Shown here piece by piece: positions 3,001-48,562 of a stretch of DNA of 64,000 nucleotides. A model generated the notes under the pieces. The model was given only the letters and a program-made list of their open reading frames with translations, searched no databases and had not been told where the DNA came from. The stretch lies in contig JAAILG010000356.1 in the NCBI GenBank assembly GCA_012026655.1, positions 1 through 64,000 of the forward strand, read 5' to 3'. Made by a program: the position numbers and the translations under genes. This stretch comes from Hydrolagus affinis. Its lineage: Eukaryota. Numbering within the stretch: position 1 is the stretch's first letter; each line of letters opens with the position of its first letter.

Positions 3001-4989
3001 AGCTTTAAACAGTGATCTTGGGGTGAATTGGAGTGCCTACATTCAGATTTAGGTCATTTCAAGCTTTGTATTATCAACTACTAGATGAAATAAATTGGAA
3101 TAAACAAATATCAAATAAATAATGACAAATTCATTAATGAAAATATGGTGTGGCGCCGAAGGGCAAATAATATAACTTTGAACAAATAAATATTATGAAT
3201 TTATAGATCTCTAAATAATTTCTTCTTTTTGGTTCAATCCCTTCATGACTGTTTATGCTTCTGACCTGTCACATTCTAAACTGGATAGTTTGATAATTTT
3301 TTTATTACAATTTACAGGAGATGAAAATCAATACATTGTACAAGAAAAAAACCGACATTGATATCAAGTGCTGGGGTTTGATTATTATGAGGAAACTCTC
3401 AGTAGAAATCTGGATATGATAGAAAATCATTAAATAGGGCACTACTCTTAAATTACATGGAGAAATACACACCGGGGGAAACTTGCTTGCTATGGTACCT
3501 TTACCGTCTATCTGAATAGGCAATATGGGGACCTTAGTTTCATATCTGATCTGAGGATGGCAACACTGACAATTCCCTCCCACCACCCACCCCAGCGCTG
3601 CACTGGAAGATCACACTAGTTCTCCTTAAAGCTTTTGTTTGAAGCCAATCAATTACAAGCAGTTCAGTCTTAGTTCAGGTTTGTTCTTATTCCACCTTTG
3701 CTTTGCCATTTGTCTATCCCATACCAATTTGTACATTTATTGAAATGTTCTTGTGTTCAAATCGCATAATACAGTGCTTGTAAATGCTAGACTCTGAGCA
3801 TACATGTTTTTGAATTGTTGTGGTGTCAAGTCATTTTCAGGTTATAGTAAAACTACCAGAGGGATTTTCTCTAAGATTGGTTTATTTGTGGTCCAGAGAT
3901 TTGTGCCCTCGTGATTGGCAGTTACCAAACACAGAGCTTGGGCTAATGCGAACTCCTTATATTACATATGTTTAGTCAGATCCCTGGCTTTCATTCTGTA
4001 GGAAATTACATCTTTTAGAGCCTGCATTTTCAATTTGTTTGGACACAGGAGGGTCAAGTCTCCAACCCCTTAAGGATGTTTAGATCTTCTGCATTCAACC
4101 CATAACCGCTAAAAAGTATGACATTTTCAAGATCTGCAATTAACCCTTTTGGCAAACGTAACCCTATTATCACAAAGCAAATATGTATTAAATATTAATC
4201 ATTCCCTACATATTTGTCATGCTTTAATCCAGCATAAATGTTGTACAGAATTAAACCCCTGAAAAACTTTTATCATTGTGTTAATTATAAATATTTTCAA
4301 GGGTTTCTTTATTGCATTATCTGCATGGGAGACACAGTAACATGATGTGAAGCAGGGTTTTTTTTAAAAAAAAATCAGTGAAACAACCTGTGGTACTCAA
4401 CACCTCAATAAGAGTTTATATATAAATGGACTGTGTTCAAATGAGCCAGGCTGATAAGCATGTTCAACTTCCAGCTCTGTTTTGAACTATTCACGATAAT
4501 GTTTGCAGAGGCATTTGAATAATTTACTTCAACTAAACACACACCCAAACATAATTCCAAACTAATTGTAGTGTTTCTTTACCCCCAAAGCACATCCAAT
4601 TCACCCTCATTGCAACAAAAATCTCTGATTCAAGCAGGTTTGCTCATTCTCCATAATATATCATTGAGCACATTTTGTCTCACTGCTATTCTACATTTAA
4701 GGTAAGCAAGGCATTTCGGAAAATTAATCACTTTTTCCATAGAGCATTTGCAAGTGTTGACTGATACAGCATGTATTTTTTCCCCTTCAGACTGAAGTTC
4801 AAAAGAATTGAGTAAATGGGCTGGGCCACACATATTTTTAAAAATTATGTCTTTTTGTTTGTAGCCTGAGAAAACAAACGGATTTTCACATGACACTTAC
4901 TGGCAAAATAGTTATCAGAATTCAGTTTTTGAACTTTCCCTAGCCTTGCTTATTTATATGCCAGGTCCAGAAGTAGCAAGTGGCTTTTC

Positions 4990-5138
4990 ATAATAATAAT
5001 AATAATCATTGCTTTTGATACAGAACCTTATCACATCACTGAGACGTCTCAAAGTGCTTCACAGTAAATTCTGTAAAGTGAATTGCCTGTGAATTTCGTG
5101 GCCGGAACGCGGCTGCCAATTACACACTGCAGTGTGCC
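4990..5138 (-). mobile_element. 5'-truncated SINE (3' half, L2-type tail)
   Basis: (TAA)n, then reverse complement of the tail of the full copy at 45775-46084 (gagacgtctcaaagtgcttcacagtaaattctgtaaagtgaattg). Confidence 0.8.
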
Positions 5139-6784
5139 AGTGTTATAATAGTGTGGAAGAGGAGCTTTAATCTAAAATATTCAGCAAACGGAAACATTGA
5201 TGTCTAAGAGCAAGCTAATAAGGTCTGAACCGTGCCCTGGTGCATTTGAAATCAGAATAAAATCAGCCACAATGAGCACAAGAAACCGCAAGCGCTGAAT
5301 TTCGTTCAGCACGAGAAGAAGATGCCTTTGACTTTAGCAAAGCATGCAAAGAAAATCAGTCTTGATGAATGGAAGGAAGAATTATTAAAAGCAAAACTGA
5401 AGAATGGCTTTCTACATGATGTGAACAGAAATAATAATGTTCTAGCTGCAAAGAAAAATGGTGTGAACGCTTCTGATAGATCATTTTTTGGGGGAAAAAA
5501 AATTGGAGATCAAAAATCATTTTGGCAGCTCAAAATTGAATTTGTAGTGAAAGGATTGGCAGGCCAGTCAAAAAACTATTTCATGGCCTGCCATTCAGTC
5601 AATTTAATGGGACATGCATGAATCTTTTTACTAACAAACATGAGTGACAACTCAAGGGTTTTGGAAATAAAGTGCAAAATATTTTTGTTTTCACTGATAT
5701 TTTCTGGCCGTAAAGCAAACTTATGATCACATATTCACGTCTTTGCCAATACCTGAATGTAACTTTATTTCACTCACAAAAATCTGTTAAATAATACTTA
5801 AATTTATCTTAGTTTACTAGCAGCCAAAGCATCCCATGCCTGAACAGCTGATAATTGGACCAACATTTGAAGAACTCTGACTGTGTCGTACCTATATAGC
5901 CAACACTTGCAATCAAGCATAAAGCCCCATTAATTGGAGCTTAACTGCAATGTGAAGTAACAGGGAGTGCGAAACAAGTCACTCCTGAGGCTCAGTTTCC
6001 TGTTCAAGGGAAGGATTCCATTGCGAACGGGCTAATACCCCATTTTAGTCAGGAAACAGCAGTGCAATAAAATCACTGTTTCCTGCTCGACCAACACACA
6101 GAGAAGTGACAATTTCTGTCTGTTTTCTGTTGCAAAGAATGAATGTTCCACCCACCTTATATACAATGCTCAGGTTTTGTTTCTAGTCTGAAAGTCATTA
6201 CATTTCTTGTAATTTAATTATGTGCACCGTAATATACATTGATGTTCTGTTAGCTAAATAATTATTTACATTGGAATGAAAGTGATACCTTTTTAATACC
6301 AATCAATACTGATTCAGTAAAGGCAAGATTAGAAGCCCATTCAAGCTTTCCCCCCACCTCCTCTATTTTCTTTAAATTGAACCTATATTTTATAACTAGC
6401 CAGAGTCATATATTTTTAAGTATCTTGGCCATTCTTTAGGATTGTATTTTGAGAGATAAGGTACAATTATCTAAATTGTCTTAAGATCAATAAATTATAG
6501 CACATTTTTCATTCAACTTTTTTTTGAGAACTATAGTAACATTTAGCATGAAAATGACAAAGACTTAATTTGACTTTTATTCTTGAAATATTAAAAAGTG
6601 AAGAATCATGGTCTTAATATATTTTTGTAATTCCAATATTTATGTATGATTTCTGCTCTTTGCATGCTCCAAACATAACACAGTAATCGGCAGGGCTAAG
6701 AGCAAATGGGGAAAGTGAGACCAAAATTATTCACTGTTAAAATATCAAGATCTACCTCGTTGAACGTGCTTTCTGTCATCTTTT

Positions 6785-19099: not shown

Positions 19100-21304
19100 A
19101 AGACCACTTTCATCTTGGTTAATAGGGGGGGAATTGTTGTAGAAAAATGTCAACCCGGCAGATTTTACAGTGCTATTTTTTTTAGCTCGATGGATTTAAT
19201 CATTTTAAATGCTTTGGAGCTTTTTTTTGCAAGCTTATAGGTTAACCATCACGTTATAAATTATATAGGTTTTCGATATGGCTGCGTAAATGTCTTAAGA
19301 GTTCAGCTCATGGGTCTGGTTTGGTGCTGTGACATGTAGTTTGACACCAGAACTAGCTACATTGGTCACTGTTAACGGAATGCATTGCTTTTGCCTTCTT
19401 TTGGTTAGGGTCATTTGCTTGAACTTTCTGTTACTTCAGTGTTCGGTGGATTAGGTGAGACCGAATTTTGCTGATTTTCTGCTGTTAGCTTTGGTACTTT
19501 TCCAGGTATATCATGCTTTTTCACTGGTGGTTTTACAGCATTGTGCTGAAGCTCTCTCTTAGTACAGTAGTTGGAGAAACATACTGATCAATGTTTATGG
19601 GACACTGCTGTGCGCAATTGGCTGCCATGTTAATATCAAGTTATTGTCTTCACAAAATCCTCTAAAATAGAAAGCAAGTACACATCTTGAAAGCCGAGAA
19701 AGAAATTAAATCTGCAAAAAGTTAATGATTGTTTTGATGGACAAATCTAGCCAAATTTCAAAGAAATGAGAAGTACACACGTATTCAATTTTGTGACTTT
19801 TATTTAAATAACAGTTTCCTTTGAACAAACTCTCACTCATTCATCATCCGTAGTTTAAGCAGTACTGAATATGTTCTCTCTTGAACAAACTCCCTGAAAT
19901 TAAAACCTTTTTTAAAAACAGTTCTATTTTATCCAGTCCACATTGTAAAAAGAAAATAATATTCCAAGCTTTGTTTCACAAATTATTTTTGTTTTAAAAA
20001 ACAGTATTATTCAAGTATTTCTTACAGATGGCTGTCCTTATTTCATATATTCTAAATTTAAATCTCTTCCTTGCAGATATTACTAATTATCTGGCCTGAA
20101 AATCTATACAAAGACTAGCCTCATCCCTCCAAAAGAGAATCTGTGTATCCCAAACCCCCTCCCCACAACCCACCCCCCATCCCCAGATCTGAAAAAAACA
20201 TTATTAAGAGAGCAATGCGTCAACTCTGCTTTGACAATATTATTCCGAGGTGGGTTGTGAGAGGGTGGTGTGGGCGATGTAAATGTCAGATTGCAGTATC
20301 AGGAGCGCCTCGTAATGCTTGGGATTTAGATATGTTAGCGGACAGCACAGTGGTGGAGTCTCAGTGTTAATTCACACAACTCCAAGGCAGCATCAGGCCT
20401 GCGAGTATTTGATGTGGTCATTTCTTCACAAAGATGAGGGCCCATTCCTGAGAAATATCAGTTCTCACTTTGCGAAGCAAGAAAGGTGGCAATGTACGAG
20501 TATCTGGAACACTCAACAAAGGCAACCAGCAAAACATAATGGAACTAAATACTGGTTACAACAATAAAATTTGACTCACTCAATGTTTGGACATTGCACA
20601 TTTTAAAATAAAACTCTGTATAATTAGAACTATTCAGCGCTATCAAAATAATAAATACTCTTGATAACGTTTTCTTTCAACATATGTTCATTCAGATCAT
20701 GTCAATATCCAGGAAAGACATGTATGAATATTAAATATGAAAAGGTTATGAAAATAAAGCTCAAAAGAAGTTCTTCCGATTTAAAACACGGATGCCAACA
20801 ATAACTTAAAGCTGAAAGGTTTTTAAGACAAGTTTTACTAATGTATTGCCAATTTAAGTTATTAAATGAAAACATAAAAAGATGACCTTCAGTTTCAACA
20901 AATATAAATTTATGATGTTCATCATGCAGGACATGGGAACTAAATATTTTCAGTGTTCTGTGAAAGGAAAAGATAACATGAACCAAAGTATTCTGCATAT
21001 TTTATATCATCTGTCACAGAAACTTTGACATAACTTTGTCAGCCCATTAAATTAATGCAACAGTATTTTTTTGCTGGCCAATGTAGATCTGCAATTAATT
21101 AAAAATAAACACATTCTCATAGGCACCAATGTGATGTACATCAAAATGATTTCATTCAAATTGTTTAACAACATCTATGAAATATCCCTTTTTAAAAAAA
21201 ATGCAACTATTTGAATTTAATCAGTTTGCATTTACTTTAAAGAACAATTTAAAGAAATAAGAACTGTGCAGTTCATCACAAGCTTGGTAGAAATGTAAAA
21301 TGGT

Positions 21305-41447: not shown

Positions 41448-41509
41448 TGTTTTTATTTTACTTGATTATTTTACACTGTTCACTTTACTCAAACAGCTGC
41501 CTGATGGTG

Positions 41510-41640
41510 TTGGCTGCTGTATTTACGTACAAATGCACAGTCACTACCCTTTACATCAGGCCACTGTGAAGCACTGAGTGATGTTTTAATTTTGCAGGTT
41601 GAATATCAAATCCAAGGATGCAACTATTATTATTAATAAT
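41510..41640 (+). mobile_element. SINE 3' portion, diverged
   Basis: acagtcactaccctttaca...ctgtgaagcact...atatcaaatccaaggat...(TAT)n. Confidence 0.6.
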
Positions 41641-44527
41641 ACTGCATAGTTGCTTTTGCCTCAGTTGGAAACTGTTTTCCACTGCCTTTTCAAGAAATAC
41701 ATTTTTGACCGTCAATTTCTGGCTCACAAAAATATATAGTCCCTTTAGTTCAGAATACTCAGTGCACCAACCACATCATTTTAATGCGAATAGCGGAACC
41801 ATATTCATTTTAACATATCATAAGTACCTTTACTGGTGTCTATCAGTAGAAAATTTTGAACGTTTTTCACTTTTTCTTAGTGCTGTACAAACTGTACAGA
41901 AAAATCCCATGGTTCGGGCTTGTAAAGTAATAAACCTTATTTTTATATGCCACTGAGCCCAGTAGTATAGGAATGTTTGCACTTTTTGTCTCTCCAGGGT
42001 GGCTCTCTGATGTCTCAGTTTACAGCCATAGTAACTTAAACTTTCGACTTGCCTGGCATTTATGCAGAGACACAGTCCTTACACGGCAATAAAAGGTGGC
42101 AAGGTGATAAATTACCACTCTTCACTTACATTGATCACTTTATGATCCTATACTTGATGTGACAATTGTACAGTCACTCAGAATAGACTTTAATGGGACA
42201 AGAGATGAAAACCATTAGGTAGAACCATTTGTGATAATTAAAAATTCACATGGACTGAGAAAACAAAGAGGTGAACAGAGTTACCTTGAAGACTAATTGC
42301 TTATCTGTCATCAACTAATAGTTACAAGGCCTTCTTTCTCCAACTTTTCCAAACGAGGCCACCGTTCCTTGCAATAATAGACTGATTGTAAAGAGAGCTG
42401 CCATCAAATTGACCTTAAGTACTAGTCAGTATAGGCTGCACAGATGATACACTCAGAATAATTGCTTCTGCCACAAAGAATAATGCTGCTTTATGGTACA
42501 ATGGAGAAAAGAGTCACCTGCAAATGGAACCTGCTCTTGAAAGTCTTAAAGAGACAGTGTTTCTTTTTGTTACTTTGAGTAGATGATACATCCACCAACT
42601 GTAAGAAAATAGAACATCGTTAAAATGGTCCATGTTATTTTAAACTGTGTTTGGTCCAGTGTATTATCTCTGCGAACCTATAAATTTAGAGAGTGCTTAA
42701 TGATAGTATTTTTCAGAGGTCTACCTATCCACCCAGAATATGCTGTTTGTTTTAAAAAAAAAGACAGGATCCTGTCCACAGAGTCGCGGTGAAACTACAA
42801 TTTTGATTCAGTTCAATTCTTCCGCTGTTGTACCAGAAATGGCGACGCAATGAATATCTTTTTTGTAGGTCTGCGCTTTTTTCAAACTGTAAATTTGTGG
42901 GCTCATCGCTCAGCCGCAGCTGCAGAATATTTTCAGATTACGGCTCGAACATTCACTTGGGAGTGTTGGAGATTAGTAACCAGGTGGTGTTCAAAGACTC
43001 TATGGACCCACAGATCAGCAAATCGCAGCAACGAGAATTACACCTGATTGCCTTAGCCTCTTGCTAACTATCTGGAAAGACTGTGAAAACCTGACAGCCA
43101 TTGACACTGAATAGATTTCAGGCAACTCGGCTCTCTACTGTGCTCGGAGTGTGATAGAAAATAAAGGTGGGAAGCTCTGCGGATAGCTTGAAGAAATTAT
43201 ATTCTACCATCTGGTCTATTGATCGAACTAAACAAATACCTGGATAACCGGGAGGTATGAGCTCGGTGAACTGTCATTGTTGGACCTCTTCAATGAGCTC
43301 AAGGCAGATGTTAGTCCAGGTCTACCAGAAGTTAGGCTCTGCTCATGCATGTCAGATTCATAGGCACATTCAACTCTTTTTTTGACTCTGGCTTACATGA
43401 GGTCTGTGAAGGACATGGCTGACATCACCCAGGGGTTCATGTCATGAAGTGTATCATGAGAGTTTTGCTTTCATCGGGAGAAACAGTGTTAACGTCTCAT
43501 TCTCACAAACAACCAAATTAAAAATGGCCAAAAGTAAGCCAAACATTAGTTCAACACAAATGCATGGATCTGTGAGAAACGAACATGGAATCAACATGAA
43601 TCCAATTTGAAAATCTGAACTCACTCAAATTTCAAGGGGATCAAATTAAATTGGAAACTTGGCATCGTGATTCAGAGTTGGCCAGTTGTTCCTATTTGGA
43701 AATCCCAATGACTGATTTGGCTCACTCTGCATCGCTCATATTCTATCAAGTTCAAACAGATTTTTTTCCTTCAACAGATGTTTCAGATGGTAAACTCTTA
43801 ATACAATCCTTTCGCCTGCATGGCTTTCCGGGCACATGTCTCGCACGTGTGCAACAGCTGATCAGCACCAGTAAATGCACAATATCGCAAGAAATATTCA
43901 GATTAAGAAGGCCCTGCATCCCCTCTAATCTCATCCTTTCAAAAGCCTCCCATTACAGCAACGAGCTGTCTCACTGCCCTGAGACACCCTTGTTTAATAA
44001 GCGACAGGCTTGCTAAATAGATCACTCTGGATGGGTTGTGTTTGGCTTTCTGAACCTTGAACACCTTTGCATGTTTGAGGGTTTTATCATGTTTTATCAG
44101 TCTCACCTATATTAATAATAAGTAGCAGAATATACTGTCATGTAAAGCTGAGTTTCAAATTGAGCCTTTTGAAAAGTACACAGATAATTACTTACAAACA
44201 TAGAATTAAAACAGGAGATTGTTAAGGACGGGAGCGTTGCTGGTTGGGTTGTACTCAGAACCTTTTCAATCTTACTTACAATGTCTAGTGAGTAACCATA
44301 CTGTTACATACAAGACAAGCACAAAAAAGTTCATATCCGTCTTATTCACAGCAGCAACTAAAGAATGAGGGAGCACAAGAAATTTGCTTATTGCTTAATA
44401 CTGTACAATTCTATGTGTTAATCACAGCAACATCAAACCTATTCTGAGGTAGATCTGTATAGTTAACTGAACTGAAAGCGTAGATGATTTGTGTCCACTC
44501 TCCACTACACTAAATTATAAAAGGGCA

Positions 44528-44595
44528 TCAAAACCAGTTTTTGGCACTCAGAGGTCTCACTCTCCGCCTCGTCTCCAGTCGCAGCCTGCGTGAAT
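44528..44595 (-). other. Candidate terminal exon (coding part) of an unrecognised transcript
   Basis: Minus strand ttttccacattttctgcaccaacacAG|attcacgc..., GC/CpG-richer than flanks, (D)SRRLRLETRRRVRPLSAKNWF* with TGA at 44530-44528; miRNA sites downstream. No homology recognised. Confidence 0.25.
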
Positions 44596-45139
44596 CTGTG
44601 TTGGTGCAGAAAATGTGGAAAATTCTCATGTTTAGTTTCAGTTCAAATGTCTGAAATGGCTTAAATATCAGGGGAGGGGAAAATAGACAACATTTAAATA
44701 TTAGGAAAATATTCTTGTTGAAGGAATAATTATTCCTATTGTTCAAATCTATGAAGTTAAAGCGAAGTATAGGGTAATTCTTATCTGCTTAACTTTACTG
44801 TGTTCCATCATCAATCAGGCAGGATCTCAAGTTGTTCAAAACTGTTATGAGTACCACTGAGACTAATTAACTAGGAGACAATTTCATCACAGTGTATCTA
44901 AGCATGGCATTCTATTCCATAAGCCTATTAAACAATCGCCTGATTTATTAACATTTAATATCCTGAGGAGATAACGCGTGCATAAATAACACTAATGCCT
45001 TGAAGATTTTATAAAAACAAAAGTGACAAGATTTGTTTGCAAGGCCAGTGTGCCTTTGCTGTTGATGGCTCAAATAAAATAACAGAGAGCGACTCTGTGT
45101 GGTATGTCTGCTTACAAACTTGTATCATTTTGGAAAATA

Positions 45140-45239
45140 NNNNNNNNNNNNNNNNNNNNNNNNNNNNNNNNNNNNNNNNNNNNNNNNNNNNNNNNNNNNN
45201 NNNNNNNNNNNNNNNNNNNNNNNNNNNNNNNNNNNNNNN
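45140..45239. other. Assembly gap (100 N)
   Basis: Run of 100 N, typical placeholder for a gap of unknown size. Confidence 0.99.
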
Positions 45240-45774: not shown

Positions 45775-46084
45775 CCACGTAGCTCAGTGGTTAGAGCACT
45801 CACCTTACAAGTGTGAGACCTGTGTTTGATTCAAAGCAGGGCAAAACCTTGGGCAAGTTTCCTTACTCCACATGCTTAATAATAATCCCTAAAAAAAAAT
45901 TGGTCATTTCAATCTACGACTAATTGTGGGACACTGGTGTGTGTAATTGGCCGCAGAAGAGCTGCATTTCGCCCACCAATATACAGTCAATTCACTTTAC
46001 AGTATATTCCGTGAAGCACTTTGAGACGTCTAGAAGACATGAAAAGCGCTATATCAAATGCAAGGATTATTATTAGTAGTAGTA
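45775..46084 (+). mobile_element. Near full-length tRNA(Val-like)-derived SINE, ~310 bp
   Basis: A box TAGCTCAGTGG (45780-45790), anticodon-loop-like CTTACAA (45804-45810), B-box-like GTTTGATTC (45824-45832), tail aaaagcgctatatcaaatgcaaggattattatt. Confidence 0.9.
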
Positions 46085-46190: not shown

Positions 46191-47850
46191 ACAAAGGTGG
46201 ACTCCACCTTGGTTTAATGCCTCACCTGAAGCAAGGATTTGTTTATCTACTAAATAATGTAAATAACCATATACTGCAGCCCCATCCAATGAAATAAATG
46301 AAATATAGTTGGATATAAAATGGTAATTGATTAATGTTTTTGATGGCTAATAATGCATTGGCAACCTGCAATGTAGACTGTCTGTGAATGTCTGTGACAT
46401 AGTCAATCAGATAGGTACAGCAGCACACGTAGTCAGCTTTGCAAAGTATTTGAATTATGACATGTTGCTGTTGTCATGAAAGATTTTAAATCATTTTACA
46501 TTAGAAATTTTTCATTAAAGTTCTGTTTCATTGTTCAGAAGCACTAATCAAACAGGACCTTTCATGCTAATTTGGCAGTGATTACTGTGTGTAGCGTAAA
46601 ACAAATTCTGAAATAAAACGCTGGGTGTTGCCACCCAACATACTATGCGCTAAATTAGTCTGACAATCCTGTTAACTGGCTGCTCTGCTTTGGTTCAGAT
46701 ATCCCAATTTTAGTTCTTCAAAAGGCTTGTTAATATGCTACAAAAGAGCTGGGGCAATTGCTAAGTAGGCAAAGGTCAAGAGCCTTTAATTCAAAGTGAG
46801 GAGTTTTTATGAAGAAATAGGTTGTCGAGTCATGGGATGTCAGTACTAAGATGGTCTTTAGGAGATTACGAGAAGTTAAAACTTATGAAAATTGCTGTAT
46901 TTTATTTTCTTCTCACTTTGTCAAAAAATTTGTTTTTTAAAGTCCTTCTTCCTTTTTACCAAACGCCCACACACTGCTTGTTGCTGCAGCTGATACGCAG
47001 GCTGTCATAACAATGAAGCAGGAATTTGGCGAAGCTGTTAGCTCACAGCACTCACCCCAGAGCCTGTCTGGCAGGTTTTGGCTTCTTCTCTAGAGAAAGA
47101 AAGAGAAAATGAAAAGTGATATATATACAATATATATATATAGTGAAATGGAGAAACGCACTTGCAAGCTCTCCTGCTCTTTTATTCCCAAAGTTATTTT
47201 TTTCACCTAGATATTAGAATGGAAACCTGCAAATCTATTTGAAAGCAGTAATATATTCACAAGTGTACAAAAAGTTAATTTCCGAAAGCGTTCCAAGTTG
47301 GGACTCTTTGTGCCATAATCTATATAAAACACTAATTGTTTTTGATAAGTGAGGAATCTGCATCAAACACTGCGCGTTTTCACTTCCTAGATTTAATTTT
47401 TAACTTATGTTAATTTCCAACCTATGCCTCGCTGAATAAACATAAACTCACAGATGGGTTAGCGCAACAAACAAACACATTTTAAAGCATTACTTGCGCT
47501 TTTCATTCTGTCCGGCGCAGTGCAGATCAATCAACCGATAATGCTTATAAATACCCAGGATACAATCGCTGCATCATTGATGCACTCTAAGGACATGTAT
47601 GACCTGTGACCCAAATTACCTTCAAGCTGCCGCTATTGACCAGGTGGGGGAGATACTCTTCTTCAGTAAGGCGAATCTGATCCGCTCTGCTGAAGGCCGT
47701 TGCCTTCTTTGAGGCCCCTTGAGCATGTTTGCCAACAAATACATGAAAAATGCAGCTTTCTTCTGCATCCTGGTTATCAGAATCCACAGCTGTTTCAGTC
47801 AGAGACCTCGCGGAACGGCTAATCTTATCTCCGACAGTGTGCCTACATAC

Positions 47851-47923
47851 CTGCGCATTGCTCAGAGCCACCGTGTGTTGAGTTCACAATAATGCCAAGG
47901 CTATGTAGCAGATAATATAGACC
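47851..47923 (-). other. Candidate 73-nt internal exon
   Basis: Acceptor catgtttctatttgtaccAG|G and donor CAG|GTATGT; one open frame GLYYLLHSLGIIVNSTHGGSEQCA. No homology recognised. Confidence 0.25.
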
Positions 47924-48562
47924 CTGGTACAAATAGAAACATGTTTCTGAAAGTACACACTGGCAGCTATACGTTTAACTCCTAGTGAACAGGGGGAACT
48001 CAAGCCACTGGCAAATCCAGAGATTTTGTTTATATCTTGTATCTTGCTTAAAGGCAAACTATGAGATTACCAAGGATTTAAGTTTGATCTTCATGATTTT
48101 GTTTTGTCATTCCCTCCAAAAAACTATTTCTATCTCCAATAAACTTTTTTTGATTTATGAAACTTGTGAAAGCTATATATCCTGTATCTACTGAACAAGC
48201 TACAATTTTTCCGAATAATTTAATCAACTAACAAACTAGTGACCCCCCTGTATTTGTGTTTGGGTCCTATGGCCCATGTGTCTGGTGTGGATCCAACTCT
48301 ATATTTGAACCATGTCATGTGAGCTCCTACCATCAATGTTTTATGACTCAAAACCTCACCTCTTTAACCAGGAGTTTCATATCAGTACAACAGCCTTAGT
48401 ATCAAAGTACCCTGAGCCTTTGAACTGTGCTCGTTATTTCCATAAAGCAGGGGATGCCACTAGGATAACACAATGTTAGTCGATTTCCTTCCCTCCTAGG
48501 TTACTCATTGCCAGATTCTTAAGACCTTGGTCCATAACGAGGGTAAACTGTAACATTGGTAC

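What the first reader, a model, noticed from the sequence alone, without database searches (positions are those of the whole stretch)
44445..44464. let-7 site with TDMD-trigger/sponge architecture on the minus strand
The minus strand reads 5'-AACTATACA-GAT-CTACCTCA-3'. Against let-7a (UGAGGUAG-UAGGU-UGUAUAGUU; let-7f has the same ends) this gives a perfect match to nt 1-8, a 3-versus-5 central loop and perfect pairing to nt 14-22. Seed plus central bulge plus long 3' pairing is the established layout of target-directed miRNA degradation triggers (Cyrano/miR-7, Nrep-libra/miR-29b). Rough estimate: 17 fixed bases over 128 kb and about 5 spacings gives about 4e-5 for let-7 alone, higher in AT-rich DNA, and perhaps a few percent across all miRNA families. 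It lies 64-83 nt after the stop of a candidate terminal exon. Function is inference.
Basis: partly seen in the sequence, partly recalled or inferred. Interest (0 to 1): 0.7.

Follow-up and report, generated by a model that had tools for sequence, protein, structure and literature searches.

The report
Stray copy of LIN28A let-7 site
The let-7 binding site is real, but it lies in one of seven scattered, decaying copies of a short piece of the LIN28A gene's RNA tail; RNA reads from a related species match the LIN28A original rather than this copy, so the site here is likely inert and the original is likely an unusually well-paired but ordinary let-7 silencing site.

Summary
The 20-nt site is there as described. 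It does not belong to a gene in this window. Window 44284-44650 is a 367-nt copy (7.5% substitutions) of a stretch 3.9 kb behind the stop codon of LIN28A on contig C24914. Six more fragments of the same 525-nt stretch lie elsewhere; the other parts of the UTR that were searched have no such copies. One of three RNA runs from a related species covers the LIN28A exon and UTR on the sense strand through the site; at three diagnostic indels 45 of 45 reads are LIN28A-type, and none enters the window's flank. In the copies the site decays like its flanks (7/80 vs 110/1070, p=0.85). The 'terminal exon' is mutated UTR. Verdict: a likely retrocopied, inert fragment. The source site fits the known let-7/LIN28 feedback loop. 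It passes TDMDfinder thresholds but sits at the weak edge of validated triggers (3' pairing -9.7 kcal/mol, offset -2), and similar mouse Lin28 sites were already predicted. Open: why all seven fragments come from one stretch, five ending within 27 nt.

The parts
44445..44464 (-). let-7-complementary site, identical to the site at L019 5156-5175 (C24914:7155-7174) in the LIN28A 3' UTR
44445..44452 (-). 8mer seed match (nt 2-8 plus A opposite nt 1)
44455..44464 (-). 3' pairing block: 9 Watson-Crick pairs to let-7a nt 14-22 plus one G:U at nt 13; -9.7 kcal/mol for nt 11 onward
44284..44650 (-). 367-nt displaced copy of LIN28A 3' UTR (L019 4965-5332), 27 substitutions in 360 aligned bases plus small indels; CpG sites 5/19 changed against 22/341 others
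44646..44652 (-). 7-nt word AGACATT straddling the 5' junction; candidate target-site duplication (inferred)
   Evidence: chance about 0.006 (strict) to 0.04 (loose)
44280..44286 (-). second AGACATT straddling the 3' junction; its first three bases are shared with the LIN28A source (microhomology)

Best explanation
Window 44284-44650 is a decaying copy of a piece of the LIN28A 3' UTR, likely made by reverse transcription of LIN28A mRNA in the germline, and the let-7 site in it is likely an inert passenger. Shown: homology to the LIN28A locus, six sister fragments from the same 525-nt stretch, neutral-looking decay, expression of the source in a related species. Inferred: LINE-type reverse transcriptase copied the RNA from a preferred start near L019 5330 and fell off at varied points, giving clustered 3' ends and scattered 5' ends. 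At the source, let-7-loaded Argonaute likely binds through the 8mer seed with added grip from nt 13/14-22 and represses LIN28A mRNA, the mRNA arm of the LIN28/let-7 double-negative loop (known for mammalian LIN28A and LIN28B; untested here).
For: Source: C24914 carries a spliced-type last exon with both zinc knuckles (PF21890 E 4e-15; best PDB hits LIN28A), 88% identical to Callorhinchus milii LIN28A, in the LIN28A clade at 100/100 while the second locus C7026 groups with LIN28B. RNA run X3 covers L019 881-5586 on one strand at depth 19-74 outside a repeat bin, zero in the upstream intron bin, with molecule ends near 5613; runs X2 and X4 show no such coverage. On the window, X3 depth is 39-62 only over 44306-44671 and 0 over 44672-45139; loose ends at 44650 and 44284 continue in LIN28A sequence; 45 of 45 reads carry the LIN28A-type indels at 44399, 44402, 44419. 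Seven copies, 5.4-12.9% from the source; pairwise distances roughly additive; source nearest the majority of the others (3.3% against 5.4-13.1%). 5' ends span 4816-5220, five 3' ends fall in 5312-5339; 0 of 200,000 random placements put seven such fragments within 530 nt of a 4.4-kb UTR. No copies of L019 2640-4815 or 5333-5740, one unrelated 74-nt hit for 886-2400. Site divergence in the 4 copies that span it: 7/80 against 110/1070 flank, p=0.85; one copy has a broken seed. Substitutions are strand-symmetric and transition-rich. let-7 sites in Lin28A/B 3' UTRs are described (PMC7767241, PMC12465051; passages).
Against: No poly(A) tail on any of 7 copies, and the shared 3' end lies about 280-340 nt short of the RNA end seen in X3. 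A 7-nt repeated word near both junctions was found in only 2 of 7 copies. The stretch has no intron, so splicing cannot prove an RNA step. Three copies share the lack of a 4-nt block and four the lack of a 1-nt base that the source and organism B both have: either later changes in the source or one common master copy. The window's own site has 0 changes in 20 (p=0.19 under its flank rate), so selection on it is not excluded. RNA comes from three runs of one sample of another species, about 30% of each read. The letters that X3 reads at the site itself were not among the rows shown.
Confidence: 0.78

Rival explanations
1. The source site in LIN28A mRNA is a true TDMD trigger: LIN28A mRNA would destroy mature let-7 through ZSWIM8 while LIN28A protein blocks let-7 biogenesis. 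(Compatible with the window copy being inert.)
For: 8mer seed, 9-10 contiguous 3' pairs to the miRNA end, MFE ratio 0.86 for let-7a and 0.89 for the let-7f-like mature: passes the TDMDfinder thresholds (>=7 pairs, bulge 2-8, ratio >=0.7). It is the only such perfect let-7a site in G000 that could be placed in an expressed RNA. TDMDfinder lists mouse Lin28a/let-7b, let-7i, let-7k as predicted and Lin28b/let-7i as high-confidence (supplement rows).
Against: 3' pairing energy -9.7 kcal/mol is at the weak end of the validated range (-9.6 to -17.1, median -13.5; a different program). Target loop 2-3 nt against 3-11 in validated triggers; offset -2 against 0, -1 or +2 in the cases named in PMC8940178; loop length matters for ZSWIM8 binding. 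let-7 serves as an unaffected control miRNA in Zswim8-knockout fibroblasts and trigger assays. The site is predicted to be mostly paired within the UTR. Extended 3' pairing is also a feature of ordinary let-7 repression. Teleost-like LIN28A UTRs from metagenome contigs (L042-L044, partial) and this genome's LIN28B UTR have seed sites but no such block.
Confidence: 0.1
2. The 525-nt stretch is a small mobile unit (or one early master copy) that spread by itself; LIN28A is either one recipient, which then kept the let-7 site, or the donor of a single capture.
For: Only this stretch is multiplied; shared indels among copies; the longest copy abuts a tRNA-derived SINE head.
Against: No terminal inverted repeats or long direct repeats; no second copy shares the 5' end (two further exact 17-nt hits and five one-mismatch hits did not align); internal T4-T6 runs would stop Pol III (sequence); the source is the least diverged member; a second let-7 site with the same 12-nt core lies 1 kb upstream, outside the unit.
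Confidence: 0.1
3. The window copy is transcribed on the minus strand as part of a spliced non-coding RNA and acts as a let-7 sponge or trigger.
For: Site intact; AG acceptors at 44651 and 44596; an exon-like 34-nt piece at 47056-47089 and a CpG-richer stretch at 47-48 kb; the copy is also present in organism A.
Against: No window-type reads in 3 RNA runs; copy diverges from organism A like its flanks (4/211 against 47/2834 and 6/634); nearest canonical poly(A) hexamers are at 43998 (ATTAAA) and 41457 (AATAAA); none of 300 window ORFs and 70 downstream ORFs reached a Pfam cut-off.
Confidence: 0.05
4. The fragments arose at DNA level (break repair or microduplication) with no RNA step.
For: No poly(A); junction microhomologies; no intron to test.
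Against: Does not explain seven events from one stretch with clustered 3' and scattered 5' ends.
Confidence: 0.07

Closest known systems
let-7 sites in the 3' UTRs of mammalian LIN28A and LIN28B (LIN28/let-7 double-negative loop; PMC7767241, PMC12465051, passages)
   Same: Source site is a let-7 8mer in the expressed 3' UTR of a LIN28A orthologue; a second let-7 seed site lies 1 kb upstream.
   Different: Chimaera-lineage gene with a UTR of about 4.4 kb; perfect pairing to nt 14-22; positional homology to the mammalian sites was not tested; the window copy is outside the gene.
Processed pseudogene fragments / retrocopies (bioRxiv 10.64898/2026.06.26.734816, passages: 14,081 retrocopies in cartilaginous fishes, 95.7% species-specific; PTENP1 named as a miRNA decoy)
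   Same: Dispersed, 5'-variable, neutrally decaying copies of a cellular mRNA; carry a parental miRNA site.
   Different: UTR-only, 89-520 nt, no poly(A), ending short of the mRNA end; no evidence of expression, unlike PTENP1.
Validated TDMD triggers (Cyrano/miR-7, HSUR1 and m169/miR-27, NREP, BCL2L11; PMC10899785 section 10 part 1)
   Same: Seed plus central loop plus at least 6 contiguous 3' pairs.
   Different: Weak-end 3' energy, short target loop with offset -2, no conservation or ZSWIM8 data, and in the window no transcript.
TDMDfinder predictions for mouse Lin28a and Lin28b with let-7 (PMC8887481, Table S1 rows seen)
   Same: Same idea: let-7 degradation element in a Lin28 3' UTR, predicted only.
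   Different: The mouse rows have 4-7 consecutive non-wobble 3' pairs; this site has 9.

Membership tests
TDMD trigger | Seed match, usually 8mer | tested here: met
TDMD trigger | At least 6 contiguous pairs to the miRNA 3' end | tested here: met
   9 Watson-Crick plus 1 G:U
TDMD trigger | 3' pairing energy in the validated range (-9.6 to -17.1 kcal/mol) | tested here: inconclusive
   -9.7 for let-7a, -9.3 for the let-7f-like mature, -5 to -7.3 for three others; different program from the review
TDMD trigger | Central loop of suitable length (3-11 nt in validated triggers) | tested here: inconclusive
   2 nt with the wobble, 3 without; offset -2
TDMD trigger | Site lies in an expressed RNA (window copy) | tested here: not met
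   0 of 45 window-type reads at three indels; depth 0 beyond 44671; three runs of a related species only
TDMD trigger | Site lies in an expressed RNA (LIN28A source) | tested here: met
   continuous stranded coverage from last exon through the site in 1 of 3 runs
TDMD trigger | Both paired blocks conserved across species | tested here: inconclusive
   No shark or Callorhinchus UTR available; organism A contig has 1 substitution in 207 nt around the source site; not conserved among copies; not seen in L042-L045 or LIN28B
TDMD trigger | ZSWIM8-dependent loss of the miRNA | not testable with these tools
   needs experiment
Retrocopy (processed pseudogene fragment) | Homology confined to transcribed sequence of a parent gene at an unlinked place | tested here: met
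Retrocopy (processed pseudogene fragment) | Variable 5' truncation with shared 3' end | tested here: met
   5' ends 4816-5220; 5 of 7 3' ends in 5312-5339
Retrocopy (processed pseudogene fragment) | Poly(A) tail at the 3' junction | tested here: not met
   0 of 7
Retrocopy (processed pseudogene fragment) | Target-site duplication | tested here: inconclusive
   7-nt word in 2 of 7, exact at both junctions only in the window copy
Retrocopy (processed pseudogene fragment) | Loss of introns | not testable with these tools
   the stretch lies within one exon
let-7 miRNA gene | Hairpin precursor matching RF00027 | tested here: not met
   no Rfam hit there; folding z-scores -0.87 to 0.52
LIN28A orthologue (source gene) | Two CCHC knuckles and placement in the LIN28A clade | tested here: met
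   only the last exon was examined, the cold-shock exons were not located

The most novel reading that the evidence does not exclude
LIN28A mRNA of chimaeras carries a natural let-7 degradation trigger, so the gene attacks let-7 twice (protein on the precursor, mRNA on the mature form), and a discrete germline RNA fragment bearing that site was reverse-transcribed at least seven times, seeding let-7 decoy sites across the genome.
Probability: 0.07. Interest if true: 0.75.

Novelty: new member of a known kind. Interest (0 to 1): 0.27.

Why it matters
For this window: little; it shows how a displaced UTR fragment can mimic a regulatory site behind a fake exon. The useful by-products are a precise, expressed, strongly 3'-paired let-7 site in a cartilaginous-fish LIN28A, which extends the LIN28/let-7 loop to that lineage and gives a concrete candidate for testing whether let-7 can be a TDMD substrate, and an odd set of poly(A)-less copies from one UTR stretch that may record how non-L1 retroelements copy cellular RNA.

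Tried and rejected
Degenerate let-7 gene on the plus strand: no Rfam hit, no hairpin. Host protein gene: 300 of 333 window ORFs of 52 aa or more and 70 of 198 downstream ORFs scanned; none reached a Pfam cut-off; the Intu_longin_1 hit at 20705-21001 (20.6 bits, cut-off 23.7) reads like non-coding DNA. Window as parent gene with a spliced upstream exon: the source's upstream sequence is not in the window. DNA transposon ends: none. ADAR-type A>G excess in the copies: none (A>G 19/423, T>C 22/505). LINE-like stem-loop at the shared 3' end: no better than shuffles (z 0.36, -0.16). LINE tails fused to the copies: flanks of 8 junctions searched against held loci, only one SINE hit. Extra copies by end patterns: none new. 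No RNA holder listed for the window itself; X2-X4 were added by study and are another species. Metagenome scan for the site: 0; for LIN28 loci: 6, four real LIN28, no UTR homology (a 16-23 nt match in L045, E 0.75, taken as chance). Literature: 12-mer sequence search gave 24 unrelated listings; no paper with 4 of 5 of LIN28A/let-7 site/UTR/retrocopies/pseudogene; let-7+TDMD+LIN28A searches gave no validated let-7 trigger in the listings; lin28+chimaera listings held nothing on this site; one search gave one unrelated review. The library lacks most subscription papers and bioRxiv supplements were closed, so absence from print is not shown.

Full report
Observation. Ten let-7 hairpins were found in the window's genome; with their matures the site gives 8 seed-side pairs, a short loop and 9 Watson-Crick pairs plus a G:U to nt 13-22, -22.7 kcal/mol for let-7a. 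It is not a let-7 gene: no Rfam hit and no hairpin. By base composition such a two-part match is expected 1.1e-4 times per window and 1.9 times per genome; the genome holds 9, of which 6 are let-7 genes read backwards, 1 is in a decayed SINE, and 2 are this site and its twin on C24914; the reversed control gives 2.

The surroundings are a copy. A DNA search with 44300-44700 hit seven other contigs. Homology stops at 44650 and 44284. The best match, C24914 (L019), carries 3.9 kb upstream of the site an acceptor, a 117-codon frame with two CCHC knuckles and a stop. It matches LIN28A structures and Callorhinchus milii LIN28A at 88%. A tree of 34 of the 120 listed homologues plus the two last exons of this genome puts it in the LIN28A clade (100/100) and the only other hit, C7026, with LIN28B (the two genome rows fill under half of the columns). 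The organism is therefore a chimaera-like cartilaginous fish (inference from these hits).

Expression belongs to the source. No RNA holder of the window was listed; three raw RNA runs of another species (organism B) were offered. In X3, 274 reads were laid on window 41500-45139, nearly all on 44284-44650, on the strand expected for a minus-strand RNA, mostly 90-95% alike; their loose ends at both borders run on in LIN28A sequence and 45 of 45 carry the LIN28A-type indels at three places; depth is 0 over 44672-45139. On L019 the same run covers the exon and the whole UTR on the sense strand, none in the intron bin, with ends near 5613; X2 and X4 show only repeat-derived reads. So the site is in a mature LIN28A mRNA about 440 nt before its end. 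The tables were cut, so the letters X3 reads at the site were not seen. A DNA run of organism A holds both the source and the window copy.

The family. Source plus seven fragments: window (L019 4965-5332), C10599 (4816-5339, broken by later insertions), C82415 (5131-5329), C24522 (5184-5327), C15632 (5123-5212), C3971 (5220-5312), C9017 (4992-5153, cut by an insertion). They differ from the source by 5.4-12.9%; distances are roughly additive and the source is nearest the majority of the others (3.3%). The rest of the UTR that was searched and the last coding exon have no copies (L019 2400-2640, which holds a repeat, was not searched; counts are lower bounds). Four copies span the site: 7 changes in 80 against 110 in 1070 flanking (p=0.85), one with a broken seed. 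CpG sites decay faster and changes are strand-symmetric.

How the copy arose (inferred). Scattered 5' ends with five 3' ends inside 27 nt is the pattern of reverse transcription from a fixed start with early fall-off; random placement never gave such clustering in 200,000 trials. In the window copy a 7-nt word straddles both junctions, as a target-site duplication with microhomology would (chance 0.006-0.04). Against: no poly(A) in 0 of 7, the word test succeeds in 2 of 7, and the shared end is about 300 nt short of the RNA end. Shared indels among copies leave a single master copy open. What fixes the 3' end is unexplained. Retrocopies are common and mostly species-specific in cartilaginous fishes (10.64898/2026.06.26.734816, passages).

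What the source site does (inferred). let-7 sites in Lin28A/B 3' UTRs form the known feedback loop (PMC7767241 and PMC12465051, passages); the chance of this match falling in the LIN28A UTR is about 4e-6, and a second let-7 seed site with the same 12-nt core lies 1 kb upstream. So it is a selected site. As a trigger it passes TDMDfinder's thresholds (PMC8887481, passages; ratio 0.86), but the same pipeline already lists mouse Lin28a and Lin28b let-7 pairs as predictions (supplement rows), and the review I read reports 20 of 37 tested predictions working (PMC10899785, passage). Its 3' energy (-9.7) is at the weak end of validated triggers and its target loop is short (PMC10899785 section 10 part 1); loop length affects ZSWIM8 binding (PMC13083262, passages); offsets named for triggers are 0, -1 and +2 (PMC8940178, passages and section 6 part 1); let-7 is used as an unaffected control in such work (PMC13083262, PMC8653786, passages), is argued not to be an EBAX-1 target in one worm cell (10.64898/2026.01.07.698237, passages), and uses 3' pairing for ordinary repression (PMC9161110, passages). 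PMC10735318 (passages) had nothing on this site. I put repression well ahead of TDMD (about 10%).

Verdict. Observation real; interpretation misplaced. The window holds a likely inert, likely retrocopied fragment of the LIN28A 3' UTR. New member of known kinds; interest 0.27. The bolder reading, a LIN28A-borne let-7 trigger spread as decoys, stays at about 7%.

Noticed in passing
L019 4816-5339 and seven contigs: All dispersed fragments come from one 525-nt stretch of the LIN28A UTR and five end within 27 nt, about 300 nt before the RNA end; cause unknown (old poly(A) site, internal priming, cleavage product or master copy).
   Followed up: partly
L019 about 4104-4135: Second let-7 site (7mer-m8 with upstream pairing, -18.0 kcal/mol) in the LIN28A UTR, sharing a 12-nt core with the main site.
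   Followed up: partly
L019 3965-4059 and L048 4640-4739: LIN28A and LIN28B 3' UTRs of this genome share a 100-nt block (70%, E 4e-8), each followed by let-7 seed sites: a likely relic of the gene duplication.
   Followed up: partly
L019 887-1240 (P0002): Cartilaginous-fish LIN28A keeps a long C-terminal tail resembling that of LIN28B, which bony-vertebrate LIN28A lacks; database names for these proteins are mixed.
   Followed up: partly
window 47000-48000: CpG-richer stretch (o/e 0.57) with a TATA-like word on + at 47546-47553, a 55-codon ATG frame at 47725-47892 with a hydrophobic start, and a minus-strand exon-like piece at 47056-47089; no Pfam hit, no RNA laid.
   Followed up: no
window 45140-45239: 100-base assembly gap 490 nt from the copy.
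   Followed up: no
window 45779-46081: tRNA-headed SINE (Rfam tRNA hit at 45779-45837) with many relatives in the fetched loci.
   Followed up: partly
L054 (C31:30375-30397): A second perfect two-part let-7 match, inside a decayed SINE: an example of a chance site.
   Followed up: yes
L003 about 880-927: The 3' flank of the C82415 copy resembles a CR1-type LINE tail (label recalled) and shares a 7-nt word with the source just past the junction; no match among held loci.
   Followed up: partly
L019 in DNA run X1: Contigs at the LIN28A locus have word depth 21-26 against about 53 at the window locus; haplotype splitting, GC bias or hemizygosity not distinguished.
   Followed up: no
L051 3261-4052: 264-codon open frame that looks like a decayed L2-type LINE fragment (label recalled; no Pfam hit).
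   Followed up: no
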